From assembly GCF_046105845.1 (NCBI RefSeq), contig NZ_CP151004.1: a stretch of 64,000 nt of DNA; one strand, written 5' to 3'. Of this stretch, positions 61,101 to 64,000 are shown one piece after another (positions within the stretch are counted from its first letter, which is position 1; every line of letters begins with the position of its first letter). Source of the stretch: Escherichia coli. GTDB taxonomy: Bacteria > Pseudomonadota > Gammaproteobacteria > Enterobacterales > Enterobacteriaceae. The position numbers were made by a program.

Positions 61101-64000
61101 TGTTCGCGCAGGGTAAATTTCCCCATTGTGGAGAGTGGCACCCGTTCACGAACCCAGAAGAAACAGCACAGGAACATCACCACGGCAATGGCGCACAATA
61201 CGCCGACGCCCAGTTGATAGCCGCGCGCGGCATTACCCTGACCGAAGAGATCCACCATCCACGGCAGGCCAACCGAAACCAGAAATCCCGCTACGCCGCA
61301 GAGAACGAATCGCCAGGACTGGCAGGAGATCACTTCATTGTGGCGGGTGGTCATGGTGTTGATCAGCGCGCAGTACGGCACGTTGATGACGGTATAACCG
61401 ACTGAAAGGAGCAGGTAAGTGCCGAACGCCCAGGCGATTTTTACTCCCATGCTGGCATCTGGCACGGTGAACGTCAGGATGCCGATAATGCCGATGGGAA
61501 TGGCAATCCACAACTGCCACGGACGAAAGCGCCCCCAGCGACTTTGCGTCCGGTCGGCAATGACGCCCATCACCGGGTCGGAGATGGCATCAAACACGCG
61601 CAGTGCAATAAACAGCGTGCCGACCAGCGCCGGAGTTAAGCCAAAAACGTCGGTGTAGAAAAAGGTGAGAAAGTTCATGATCAGGCAAGTTATTACGGTG
61701 CCGCCTGCGTCACCCAGGCCGTAGCCTATTTTTTCCCGTACAGATAACGCATCGTCAATTTTACCTTTAGCGATATCAGCGGTAGTAATCGGTGTAGAGG
61801 TCATAGATATTCCTCGTGAATAGGGAGCAATTTTTAGTTTTATTGCAATGACCTGATTAATTCTGCCGTGAACGGGAATATCAACAAGGCGAGAAAAGAG
61901 TAAAAAAAGGTGACGATTCCGACCTGAATTTAAAAGTGTGAATTGGATCAGGTGAAATTAATGTTTTTGATTAATAATCAAAAGGTAATGTGTTTAATCA
62001 TTAATGAATAAGCGGGAAATTACATATCAATGCTCGAATTATCCATGACGTTACCGATTAAAGTGCAAAATGGTGGATTATTTATTTCCCGTGGCGTAGG
62101 GAGGCATCCGGCAAGGCGGCTGGAGTCATGGGAAATTATCTTTGTCGAAAAAGGTCGATTAACGATTCAGGAAGAAGAGCGGATATTTCTGGTCGATGCG
62201 GGAGAGAGTTTATTACTCTGGCCGAACCGACAGCATGTTGGGGTAGAGGATTTTCCCGCCGATCTCAAATTTTACTGGCTGCATTTTGAGGTTAAAGCGC
62301 CGGATAGCGACCCGCGCTGGCTCACTCATCTTAGCGTGCCGCAACAAACGAAGGTTGCCGATCCGCAGGCGCTGGTGGCCCTGTTTCGCCAGTTCTTAAG
62401 CGAACAGGAAAAGCATCAGCGCACTCCGGCGCTGGAGTTTATTGTGCTGCTGATTTTGCAGCAACTCACCCGTGACGCGCGTCTTGATGAACAGGCCGAT
62501 GCCGCAGGTACCACGCTTGCCTGGAAAGCGCAGAAACTGATCCGCACGCAATATCATCGCCCGCTTTCCACGGCGCTTTTAGCCCGCGAGCTGTACTGCA
62601 ATGCCGATTATCTTGGGCGCGTCTATCGGCGGGTGTTTCATCTGACGTTAACAGAAGCAATCCATCGCCAGCGAGTGCGCGAAGCCGAAAAGCTGTTAAT
62701 TAGCGAAGCGCGATCGCTCACTGAAGTGGCTGCGTTGTGCGGGTTTAATGACGTTGGCTATTTCCGGCAGATTTTTCGCAAACACACCGGTTTAACGCCA
62801 GCAGCGTGGAAGCGGCGTTACAGCAAGGAACATATCAATTCGTAGTGCCGGGGCGATGAAGCCCCGGCGTGAGGGATTACTGCCCGTAATAGGCATTGGC
62901 CCCATGTTTACGCAGGTAGTGCTTATCCAGCAGTTCGTTTTGCATCGCAGGGAGCTGCGGCGCAAGCTGGCGCGAGAACAGGCCCATATAGGCGCACTCT
63001 TCCAGCACTACGGCATTATGCACCGCATCGGCGGCGTTTTTACCCCAGGCGAACGGGCCGTGAGAATGCACCAGTACCGCCGGGATTTGCGCCGGACTCC
63101 TGCCGCGTTCTTCGAAAGTTTCAATGATCACTTCGCCGGTCTGGTATTCATACTCGCCGTTGATCTCCTCTGCGGTCATCTGTCGCGTGCAGGGGATGGC
63201 ACCATAGAAATAATCAGCGTGCGTGGTGCCCCAGGCGGGGAGATCCAGCCCGGCCTGCGACCAGATGGTCGCGTGGCGCGAGTGGGTATGCACAATGCCA
63301 CCGATTTCGGCATAGCGACGGTAAAGCGCCAGATGCGTTGGCGTGTCGGACGAGGGCTTTTTGCTGCCTTCTACCACCTTACCGCTGGCTATCTCAACCA
63401 CCACCATATCGTCGGCGGTCATCACGTCGTACTCGACGCCGGAAGGTTTGATTACCATCCATTGCCGCGCTTCGTCTACCGCGCTGACATTGCCCCAGGT
63501 GAACGTCACCAGATGGTGAGCGGGAAGCGCCAGATTCGCCGCCAGCACGTCGGCTTTCAGTTGCTCTAACATATAAAACCTGCCTCCTGCATACGCGCTT
63601 CAATCCAGCGCCGCGCCTGAATAATCTCCAGCACCGGCTCTTTGGCTTTTTCGGTCCACATCTCAATCAGGAAAGAACCGCGATAGTTCAGTTCATGCAG
63701 CGTTTTGAAGATGCCAACGAAATCGACGCAGCCTTCGCCAAACGGCACATCACGGAACTGTCCGGGGCTTTGCTCGGTAACTGGCTGGGTGTCTTTCAGG
63801 TGGATCGCGGCGATACGATCAATGCCCAGTTTCAGTTCGGCGGGAACATCATTGCCCCAGGCGCTGAGGTTGCCGACGTCCGGGTAGACGGTGAACCACG
63901 GCGAGGCGAGCCTCTCGTCCCATTTTTTCCATTTGCTGATGGAGTTCATAAACGCGGTATCCATAATCTCCACCGCCAGCATTACTTGTGATGCCGCCGC

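What the first reader, a model, noticed from the sequence alone, without database searches (positions are those of the whole stretch)
61967..61981. Perfect 15-bp palindrome in the divergent AraC/transporter promoter region
Directly seen: TTGATTA-A-TAATCAA centred in the roughly 225-bp divergent region. A related TTGATCAA...TGATCAA element sits between the two ADH genes at 53069-53087. Half-sites resemble FNR/CRP-family targets but with non-canonical spacing, so the binding factor is unknown.
Basis: seen in the sequence. Interest (0 to 1): 0.25.

Follow-up and report, generated by a model that had tools for sequence, protein, structure and literature searches.

The report
Promoter -10 box inside a palindrome
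The palindrome is real, but comparison with about 70 related bacteria shows only one half is conserved, so it is most likely the ordinary -10 promoter box of a sugar-regulator gene, next to a conserved CRP site, and not a new symmetric protein-binding site.

Summary
The palindrome exists where stated. It is longer than reported: a perfect 19 bp, TTTTGATTA-A-TAATCAAAA, at 61965-61983. It lies 56 bp upstream of an AraC-family regulator gene, in a 225-bp divergent region shared with a GPH sugar symporter and GH127 glycosidase operon. This is an E. coli accessory islet, found in 2323 of 5426 complete genomes and deleted in K-12.

In 73 orthologous regions from other Enterobacterales, the centre and right arm (AATAATCAA) are almost invariant. 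The mirror bases of the left arm are not: the G of TTGAT is G15/C25/T14/A5. The symmetry is therefore incidental.

The conserved core AATAAT (61973-61978) sits a fixed 36 bp after the TGTGA of an invariant CRP-like site (AAAnTGTGA-N4-GATC, 61933-61949). That fits a -10 hexamer of a class-II-like CRP-dependent promoter for the regulator gene, as at melR. The same CRP site would lie near -91.5 of a predicted transporter promoter, upstream of a conserved putative regulator site.

The FNR/CRP reading of the palindrome fails on spacing (TGA-N7-TCA, not N6) and on conservation. The "related" TGATCAA element is a direct repeat and shows no demonstrable link. No transcription-start data could be retrieved, so the promoter model is inferred. 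This is ordinary and of low interest.

The parts
61965..61983 (.). Perfect 19-bp palindrome TTTTGATTA-A-TAATCAAAA.
   Evidence: It is intact in E. coli O157:H7, ETEC, ST2747, E. whittamii, Escherichia sp. E1V33 and C. amalonaticus, but not in most other genera.
61973..61978 (+). Predicted -10 hexamer AATAAT of the regulator-gene promoter (5/6 to TATAAT, with A at position 2 and T at position 6). The predicted transcription start is about 61985-61987.
   Evidence: It lies exactly 36 bp after the T of TGTGA in 58 of 73 orthologous regions, and 35 bp after it in 2 more (L011, L013). Three loci carry GATAAT or GATATT at 35 bp instead. The flanking C61979 and A61980 are 59/59. The function is inferred; no transcription-start data were available.
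61933..61954 (.). CRP-like site AAAGTGTGAATTGGATCAGGTG. The core is TGTGA 61937-61941 and TC 61948-61949, with the centre between 61944 and 61945.
   Evidence: AAA, TGTGA and GATC carry 1.8-2.0 bits in 74 sequences. The pattern AAANTGTGA-N6-TC occurs twice in the window against 0.18 expected. Assignment to CRP rests on consensus and conservation only.
61895..61927 (-). Conserved 33-bp block (consensus AAGAGTATAAAAAGnTGACGATTCCGACCTGA on the + strand). It is the putative binding region of the islet's AraC-family regulator, at about -42 to -74 of the predicted transporter promoter.
   Evidence: The distance from GATTCCGAC to TGTGA is 22 bp in all 52 loci that match the strict pattern. The binding protein is inferred.
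61860..61889 (-). Predicted transporter-operon core promoter on the minus strand: TTGTTG (61887-61882), 16-bp spacer, CAGAAT (61865-61860). The predicted start is near 61853.
   Evidence: The blocks CAACAAGG and ATTCTGC are conserved and indel-free. The hexamer matches are weak (3/6 and 4/6). Inferred.
62009..62017 (+). Conserved AAGCGGGAA, 13-21 nt before the regulator ATG; probably a Shine-Dalgarno-like region.
   Evidence: The divergent Buttiauxella-type loci have AAGGAAAA or GAGGAAAA at the equivalent place.
62030..62845 (+). AraC-family regulator gene (271 aa; AraC_binding cupin plus HTH_18).
60404..61804 (-). GPH-family (MFS_2) glycoside:cation symporter gene.
58429..60417 (-). GH127 (beta-L-arabinofuranosidase family) gene. 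It overlaps the transporter stop, so it is probably in the same operon.
53069..53087 (+). TTGATCAA-CTTA-TGATCAA: two direct TGATCAA copies 11 bp apart, with a third at 53181. No demonstrable relation to the palindrome.

Best explanation
The palindrome is an incidental symmetry around the -10 element of the promoter that transcribes the AraC-family regulator gene. The selected unit is asymmetric: T-N-R-T-K-AATAAT-CAA. Its core, AATAAT (61973-61978), would be recognised by sigma-70.

There is no -35 hexamer. In its place sits an invariant CRP-like site centred at 61944/61945. That is 28.5 bp before the hexamer, or about -40.5 to -41.5 from a start at 61985-61986. This makes a class-II-like CRP-dependent promoter, as at E. 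coli melR.

The same CRP site would serve the divergent symporter/GH127 operon from about -91.5, upstream of a conserved 33-bp block where the regulator probably binds (about -42 to -74). That is the layout of araBAD and rhaBAD.

Shown: the sequence, its conservation pattern and the fixed spacings. Inferred: the transcription starts, CRP binding and regulator binding.
For: (1) Asymmetric conservation. In 59 orthologous regions in the same register, 61979-61980 (CA) are 59/59 and 61981 A is 50/59. Bases 61973-61978 are fixed in this set by the way it was selected. The mirror bases vary: 61969 is G15/C25/T14/A5 (0.18 bit) and 61970 is A32/G24/T3. Only 10 of 59 keep all seven arm pairs. Two E. 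asburiae strains differ at the G (TTAATTAAT in L038, TTGATTAAT in L039).

(2) AATAAT carries the -10 signature. It sits at a fixed 36 bp from TGTGA in 58 of 73 loci, although the 11 bp between them (61953-61963) are randomised at 0-0.5 bit.

(3) The CRP-like site AAAnTGTGA-N4-GATC is invariant in 73 of 74 sequences. It matches the CRP core pattern, which is otherwise found in this window only at 45773-45789, within a cluster of perfect CRP cores.

(4) Ten loci (Buttiauxella, Cedecea, Atlantibacter, one Citrobacter) keep the CRP site and the 33-bp block but lack TTAATAATCAA. Nine of them have a conserved TACACT (TAnAnT) 55 bp after TGTGA, and L067 has TACACC there. This looks like promoter relocation, which is hard to reconcile with an essential operator.

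(5) The melR precedent: transcription depends on CRP overlapping the -35 region, divergent from melAB (PMC2377442).

(6) The region from 61850 to the ATG is almost free of indels across genera, as expected for phased promoter and activator elements.
Against: No transcription start is known. The consensus promoter scan found nothing in 61700-62150, because it requires a -35 hexamer.

The CRP-to-hexamer distance is 1 bp shorter than the canonical -41.5 geometry if the start lies 7 nt after the hexamer.

Conservation extends beyond a hexamer: T61968, R61970, T61971 and CAA 61979-61981. Sigma-70 contacts alone do not explain this. AATAAT was used to define the 59-locus set, so its invariance there is partly by construction. 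The independent evidence is the 58-of-73 count and the flanking bases.

The complementary strand also reads as a -10-like GATTAT.
Confidence: 0.6

Rival explanations
1. The conserved 18-bp block (61964-61981) is, also or instead, an asymmetric operator for the islet's own AraC-family regulator. [quoted passage not shown]
For: Conservation reaches beyond the hexamer: T61968 56/59, purine at 61970 56/59, T61971 56/59, CAA 61979-61981. The block length, about 18 bp, is that of a single AraC-family DNA-binding-domain site. MelR site R is a precedent (PMC2377442). There is a weak resemblance between the reverse complement, TTGATTATT, and GTGACGATT in the 33-bp block (6 of 10).
Against: No repeated motif stands out in the profile self-comparison; the match to the 33-bp block scores no better than several other pairs. 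Ten loci keep the regulator, the 33-bp block and the CRP site but lack this motif.
Confidence: 0.22
2. The full palindrome is an operator for a symmetric dimeric factor (FNR/CRP-family or unknown), at least in the Escherichia / C. amalonaticus lineage where it is perfect.
For: The perfect 19-bp symmetry has a local chance of 0.005. It is invariant in the Escherichia lineages examined and in C. amalonaticus, although the flanks have diverged. The half-sites are TTGAT and ATCAA.
Against: The spacing is TGA-N7-TCA, not the N6 common to FNR and CRP sites. At FNR spacing only one half-site remains (5/5 plus 2/5). The only G:C pair of the left arm is unconstrained across genera and even within E. 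asburiae. Close relatives break the symmetry: Citrobacter sp. L003 has TTTTTTATTAAT and C. sedlakii L004 has TTTTTAGATAAT. The motif does not recur in the window: 1 exact match, and 3 with at most 1 mismatch against 3.5 expected. Window-wide, 0.63 palindromes with arms of at least 9 bp are expected by chance.
Confidence: 0.06
3. It is an AT-rich target for a nucleoid-associated protein (IHF or H-NS), or a hairpin or cruciform structural element.
For: The intergenic region is 32% GC in an accessory islet. AATCAA resembles the IHF core WATCAA.
Against: The IHF consensus WATCAANNNNTTR is not met. The TTR positions read TAA in the window, and the middle position is A in 67 of 74 sequences. H-NS binding would not explain base-specific invariance. 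The RNA hairpin is weak, at -4.2 kcal/mol with z = -1.5, and 20 of 200 shuffles fold as well. Under the promoter model the sequence lies upstream of both predicted starts.
Confidence: 0.05

Closest known systems
E. coli melR-melAB divergent control region (melR promoter)
   Same: An AraC-family regulator gene is transcribed divergently from a GPH-symporter-containing sugar operon. At melR, the regulator promoter depends on CRP bound over the -35 region, and MelR autoregulates at a site over the start (PMC2377442). Here a conserved CRP-like site sits 28.5 bp before a conserved -10-like hexamer.
   Different: Nothing here has been mapped experimentally. The regulator is not MelR (the MelR NCBIfam model scores 38.7 bits against a cut-off of 253). 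The intergenic region is 225 bp, and the single CRP-like site appears to be shared by both promoters. An autoregulatory site is only a possibility.
araBAD and rhaBAD promoters (activator at about -35 to -80, CRP at -93.5 and -92.5; positions from established knowledge)
   Same: The predicted transporter promoter has a conserved 33-bp block at about -42 to -74 and the CRP-like site at about -91.5.
   Different: The start site and both protein-DNA contacts are inferred from sequence. The regulator is not AraC (the AraC model scores 61.5 bits against a cut-off of 208). No direct-repeat half-sites are evident in the block.
FNR box TTGAT-N4-ATCAA and CRP box TGTGA-N6-TCACA
   Same: The palindrome's pentamers are the FNR half-sites, and it lies in a promoter region.
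   Different: The spacer is one base pair too long (N5; TGA-N7-TCA). The left half-site is not conserved in orthologues. The real CRP-like site is a separate sequence about 20 bp upstream.

Membership tests
FNR/CRP-family operator | Inverted pentamers TTGAT / ATCAA (FNR) or TGTGA / TCACA (CRP) | tested here: met
   TTGAT at 61967-61971 and ATCAA at 61977-61981.
FNR/CRP-family operator | Half-site spacing TGA-N6-TCA (an FNR N4 spacer, a CRP N6 spacer) | tested here: not met
   The spacing is TTGA-N7-TCAA. No TTGAT-N4-ATCAA or TTGA-N6-TCAA occurs on the + strand of the window. In either canonical register the second half-site matches only 2 of 5.
FNR/CRP-family operator | Both half-sites conserved in orthologous control regions | tested here: not met
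   The right-arm C is 59/59; the mirror G is 15/59 (C25, T14, A5).
FNR/CRP-family operator | Binding by the protein; an oxygen- or cAMP-dependent effect through this site | not testable with these tools
   This needs EMSA or footprinting and reporter fusions.
Sigma-70 -10 hexamer of a class II CRP-dependent promoter | Hexamer close to TATAAT, with A at position 2 and T at position 6 | tested here: met
   AATAAT, 5 of 6, at 61973-61978.
Sigma-70 -10 hexamer of a class II CRP-dependent promoter | Conserved at a fixed position in orthologues while neighbouring bases drift | tested here: met
   58 of 73 loci have it at +36 from TGTGA, and 2 more at +35. The intervening 61953-61963 carry 0-0.5 bit.
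Sigma-70 -10 hexamer of a class II CRP-dependent promoter | CRP site centred near -41.5, replacing the -35 element | tested here: inconclusive
   The centre at 61944.5 is 28.5 bp before the hexamer, giving -40.5 or -41.5 for a start 7 or 8 nt after the hexamer. This depends on an unmapped start.
Sigma-70 -10 hexamer of a class II CRP-dependent promoter | Mapped transcription start 5-9 nt downstream | not testable with these tools
   The EDL933 Cappable-seq tables (PMC10469882) are held only in truncated form. They show no 7-digit coordinates near 4.576 Mb.
AraC-family-controlled divergent sugar-utilisation locus | Regulator with an AraC-type ligand-binding domain plus a double HTH, divergent from a transporter/hydrolase operon | tested here: met
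   PF02311 plus PF12833; MFS_2/GPH; GH127. The divergent arrangement is kept in at least 73 of 79 related loci.
AraC-family-controlled divergent sugar-utilisation locus | Activator site abutting the -35 of the operon promoter | tested here: inconclusive
   A conserved 33-bp block (61895-61927) lies at the right distance from a weak predicted promoter. There are no binding data.
IHF site | WATCAANNNNTTR | tested here: not met
   AATCAA-AAGG-TAA in the window. The second T of TTR is A in 67 of 74 sequences.

The most novel reading that the evidence does not exclude
In the Escherichia / C. amalonaticus lineage, the left arm was recruited to complete a 19-bp symmetric operator over the -10 box. 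An unidentified dimeric repressor with an unusual TGA-N7-TCA spacing would then add a lineage-specific layer of control to the regulator gene.
Probability: 0.05. Interest if true: 0.3.

Novelty: new member of a known kind. Interest (0 to 1): 0.1.

Why it matters
It matters little beyond annotation. The result gives a testable map of an uncharacterised control region for a GH127/symporter islet. About 43% of complete E. coli genomes carry the islet, including O157:H7, and K-12 has lost it. That loss explains why no regulatory data for it would be expected from K-12. The map comprises a shared CRP site, a probable regulator site and two predicted promoters.

The case also illustrates a general point. 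A perfect palindrome in AT-rich promoter DNA can be a by-product of a -10 box. Comparing orthologous regions separates the selected half from the accidental half.

Tried and rejected
(1) FNR or CRP site at the palindrome. Rejected on spacing and on one-sided conservation.

(2) IHF site. Rejected because the TTR part is not met.

(3) RNA or DNA hairpin. Weak and not significant.

(4) A leftward promoter using TTGATT as a -35 or GATTAT as a -10. The partner hexamers fall in unconserved sequence or over the CRP site, and the leader would be 150-165 nt. Judged unlikely but not excluded.

(5) A repeated regulator motif shared by the palindrome block and the 33-bp block. The profile self-comparison gave nothing outstanding.

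(6) Experimental start sites. The EDL933 Cappable-seq supplements are truncated before 4.57 Mb.

(7) Literature on the islet, using the terms GH127 / AraC / E. coli, arabinofuranosidase / O157 and ysaC / ysaD. Nothing relevant was found.

(8) Variation within E. coli. It is too low to be informative. The common SNP is at 61943, in the CRP spacer, and the palindrome is intact.

(9) The origin of the spacer that holds the TGATCAA repeats. It has no match in 5426 E. coli genomes. A metagenome scan with the 19-mer returned only chance matches of 20-27 bp.

(10) An alignment artefact. The MAFFT alignment placed TACACT of the ten divergent loci in the same columns as AATAAT. The ungapped register shows it lies 19 bp further on, so the columns are not homologous.
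Full report
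**What is in the sequence**

The 15-mer TTGATTAATAATCAA is at 61967-61981 as reported. The perfect symmetry extends to 19 bp, TTTTGATTA-A-TAATCAAAA, at 61965-61983.

It lies in the 225-bp gap (61805-62029) between two divergent genes. One is a minus-strand 466-aa GPH/MFS_2 symporter (60404-61804), followed by a GH127 glycosidase (58429-60417). The other is a plus-strand 271-aa AraC-family regulator (62030-62845), with an AraC_binding cupin and an HTH_18 domain. The palindrome is not central in the gap: its centre is 56 bp from the regulator ATG and 170 bp from the transporter ATG.

**Is it more than chance?**

- Palindromes with arms of at least 7 bp, the size reported, occur 11 times in the window against 9.7 expected from dinucleotide-preserving shuffles.
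- Arms of at least 9 bp occur 3 times against 0.63 expected.
- Within the 32%-GC intergenic region alone, a shuffle yields an arm of at least 9 bp with P = 0.005 and of at least 7 bp with P = 0.058.

The 19-bp version is mildly unusual; the 15-bp version is not.

**Where the window comes from**

The window is E. coli chromosome. A core segment is 99.5% identical to strain AST215.

The three genes form an accessory islet between yiaT and sgbE. The control region is present in 2323 of 5426 complete E. coli genomes, including O157:H7.

K-12 lacks it. A deletion corresponding to window 58721-62741 leaves only the pseudogene stubs ysaC and ysaD. No K-12-based regulatory data would therefore be expected. 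I found no paper on the islet.

**Comparative footprint**

A scan of one genome per species returned 79 loci encoding orthologues of the regulator, at 61-94% identity. They come from Escherichia, Citrobacter, Salmonella diarizonae, Enterobacter, Klebsiella, Raoultella, Kluyvera, Lelliottia, Buttiauxella, Cedecea, Pantoea, Mixta and others. At least 73 of them keep the divergent symporter.

Aligning the intergenic regions shows sharply bounded conserved blocks in otherwise randomised sequence:

- ATTCTGC and CAACAAGG
- a 33-bp block, AAGAGTATAAAAAGnTGACGATTCCGACCTGA (61895-61927)
- AAAnTGTGA-N4-GATC (61933-61949)
- T-N-R-T-K-AATAATCAA (61968-61981)
- AAGCGGGAA, just before the ATG

From about 61850 to the ATG the blocks keep fixed distances:

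| Interval | Distance | Loci |
|---|---|---|
| CAACAAG to TGTGA | 55 bp | 64 of 64 |
| GATTCCGAC to TGTGA | 22 bp | 52 of 52 |
| TGTGA to AATAAT | 36 bp | 58 of 73 |
| AATAAT to ATG | 57 bp | 55 of 73 (55, 56 or 58 bp in 17 more) |

By contrast, the transporter leader varies by up to 46 bp.

**The palindrome is conserved on one side only**

These counts come from the 59 sequences that share the window's register.

| Arm position | Left arm | Right arm (mirror) |
|---|---|---|
| 5 | 61969: G15 / C25 / T14 / A5 (0.18 bit) | 61979: C 59/59 |
| 4 | 61970: A32 / G24 / T3 | 61978: T 59/59 |
| 6 | 61968: T 56/59 | 61980: A 59/59 |
| 7 | 61967: T37 / A21 / G1 | 61981: A 50/59 |

- Positions 61973-61978 are fixed in this set by the way it was selected.
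- Only 10 of 59 keep all seven arm pairs.
- The G varies even within one species: E. asburiae TN152 has TTAATTAAT and AEB30 has TTGATTAAT.
- Close relatives of Escherichia also break the symmetry: Citrobacter sp. L003 has T at the G position, and C. sedlakii L004 reads AGATAAT.
- The perfect 19-mer is shared by the E. coli strains examined, E. whittamii, Escherichia sp. E1V33 and C. amalonaticus.

The only G:C pair of the left arm would be the most informative contact for a symmetric dimer, and it evolves freely. The symmetry is not what selection maintains.

**What the conserved half most likely is**

The invariant core is AATAAT (61973-61978). It matches TATAAT at 5 of 6 positions and has the two hallmark bases, A at position 2 and T at position 6.

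It lies a fixed 36 bp after the T of TGTGA, although the 11 bp in between are randomised. There is no -35 hexamer, which is why the consensus promoter scan found nothing.

The -35 position is occupied by the conserved AAAGTGTGAATTGGATCAGGTG. This site has a perfect left CRP half-site, TCA in the right half, and the flanking A-tract. AAA, TGTGA and GATC each carry 1.8-2.0 bits in 74 sequences. The pattern AAANTGTGA-N6-TC is otherwise found in the window only at 45773-45789, within a cluster of perfect CRP cores.

The centre of the site (61944/61945) is 28.5 bp before the hexamer. That places it at -40.5 or -41.5 for a start 7 or 8 nt after the hexamer. This is the geometry of a class II CRP-dependent promoter (established knowledge; the canonical position is -41.5).

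The closest precedent is melR. [quoted passage not shown] It is divergent from melAB and is autoregulated at a site over the start (PMC2377442).

On this reading, the right arm of the palindrome is the last four bases of the -10 box plus three discriminator bases. The left arm is promoter spacer.

**A natural experiment supports the promoter reading**

Ten loci (Buttiauxella, Cedecea, Atlantibacter, one C. freundii) keep the CRP-like site and the 33-bp block. They have no TTAATAATCAA. Nine of them carry a conserved TCTACACT whose TACACT (TAnAnT) begins 55 bp after TGTGA, and L067 has TACACC there. That would put CRP near -60, close to a class I position.

Replacing one -10-like hexamer by another at a different, helically sensible distance looks like promoter turnover. 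An operator for the conserved regulator would be expected to persist.

One caution applies. The multiple alignment had placed TACACT in the AATAAT columns. The ungapped register shows the two are not positionally homologous.

**The transporter side**

On the minus strand, the conserved and indel-free blocks read TTGTTG (61887-61882), a 16-bp spacer, then CAGAAT (61865-61860). This is a weak core promoter, as expected for an activator-dependent one. The predicted start is near 61853.

Relative to that start, the 33-bp block spans about -42 to -74 and the CRP-like site lies at about -91.5. This is the arrangement known from araBAD and rhaBAD, where the activator sits at about -35 to -80 and CRP at -93.5 and -92.5 (established knowledge).

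This part is inference from sequence. The palindrome would then lie at about -112 to -130 of that promoter.

**What remains unexplained**

Conservation around the hexamer is wider than sigma-70 needs. It includes T61968, a purine at 61970, T61971 and CAA at 61979-61981.

An overlapping asymmetric operator of about 18 bp for the regulator itself would fit, by analogy with MelR site R. I give that 0.22. A profile self-comparison found no convincing second copy of such a motif. The best match, TTGATTATT against GTGACGATT at 6 of 10, scores no better than several other pairs. The ten divergent loci also do without it.

**Alternatives tested**

- **FNR/CRP.** Both families share a TGA-N6-TCA core, and the palindrome has TGA-N7-TCA. 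In either canonical register the second half-site matches 2 of 5. The motif TTGAT-N5-ATCAA does not recur in the window: 1 exact match, and 3 with at most 1 mismatch against 3.5 expected.
- **IHF.** AATCAA is present, but the TTR part reads TAA, and the critical second T is A in 67 of 74 sequences.
- **Hairpin.** The fold is -4.2 kcal/mol with z = -1.5. Under the model the sequence is upstream of both predicted starts.

**The "related" element**

TTGATCAA-CTTA-TGATCAA is at 53069-53087 as stated. It consists of two direct copies of TGATCAA 11 bp apart, with a third at 53181. It is not an inverted repeat with a spacer.

It lies in a 321-bp spacer (52924-53244) between two tandem yiaY-type Fe-ADH genes. 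Those genes are 82% identical to each other in protein and 87-89% identical to E. coli YiaY. The spacer has no match in any of 5426 complete E. coli genomes. A metagenome scan with the 19-mer found only chance hits.

Nothing links it to the palindrome beyond the letters TTGAT and ATCAA. Its function is unknown.

**Data I could not get**

An EDL933 Cappable-seq study exists (PMC10469882). Its tables are stored truncated, and no 7-digit coordinate near 4.576 Mb appears in them. I give the EDL933 coordinates so that the check can be made.

**Verdict**

The interpretation as a symmetric FNR/CRP-like operator is not supported. The most likely function is a -10 box of a CRP-dependent regulator-gene promoter (confidence 0.6), possibly overlapped by an autoregulatory site. 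This is a new, uncharacterised member of a very familiar kind of control region, and its interest is low (0.1).

Noticed in passing
window 51730-52884 and 53245-54396; spacer 52924-53244: There is a tandem duplication of yiaY (Fe-ADH, 'L-threonine dehydrogenase'). The copies are 82% identical to each other in protein and 87-89% identical to E. coli YiaY. The 321-bp spacer between them matches none of 5426 complete E. coli genomes.
   Followed up: partly
window 49000-57468: The selA-aldB stretch is only about 92% identical to E. coli ST2747, whereas the core region at 20000-26000 is 99.5% and the islet is 98.7-99.8% identical to E. coli. This suggests a segment imported by recombination.
   Followed up: partly
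window 53070, 53081, 53181: Three copies of TGATCAA lie within 120 bp upstream of the second yiaY copy, out of 10 on the + strand of the whole window. This could be a repeated regulatory motif. The function is unknown.
   Followed up: partly
window 58721-62741; K-12 NC_000913.3 3750813-3751109: The K-12 pseudogenes ysaC and ysaD are the stubs left by a roughly 4-kb deletion. It removed most of the GH127 gene, the symporter, the control region and most of the AraC-family gene.
   Followed up: yes
L085 (EDL933, NZ_CP008957.1) 4575391-4576348: In O157:H7 EDL933 the AraC-family gene abuts a truncated IclR-family (yiaJ/plaR) fragment. The whole yiaK-sgbE operon present in the window's type of strain and in K-12 is missing there.
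   Followed up: no
window 45653-45829: Three perfect CRP cores, TGTGA-N6-TCACA, lie within about 180 bp (+ strand starts at 45653, 45770, 45814). From gene order this is probably the multi-CRP mtlA promoter; that was not verified.
   Followed up: no
window 7644-7662 and 10138-10155: These are the two other perfect palindromes with 9-bp arms in the window: TTAATGACAGTGTCATTAA and ACATCCTGATCAGGATGT. They were not examined.
   Followed up: no
window 57947-58357, and just upstream: A 136-aa ORF corresponds to a HicB antitoxin, with HicA just upstream. The assignment is by comparison with the annotation of strain ST2747. It lies between aldB and the GH127 gene, where AST215 and K-12 have yiaW-yiaT, so the junction is variable.
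   Followed up: partly
L033, L041, L049, L053 and similar loci; the transporter leader between the symporter ATG and the ATTCTGC block: Klebsiella, Citrobacter and some other orthologous loci carry a 25-40-bp insertion with a GC-rich hairpin followed by T's (for example CCCGCTGAAGTGCGGGCTTT). E. coli lacks it. It could be an attenuator or a terminator remnant.
   Followed up: no
window 61943: All three E. coli genomes examined from the 98-99%-identity class (O157:H7 F1273, ETEC-2264, Z22-2) have A where the window has T, in the non-contacted spacer of the CRP-like site. The palindrome itself was invariant in every Escherichia sequence examined.
   Followed up: yes
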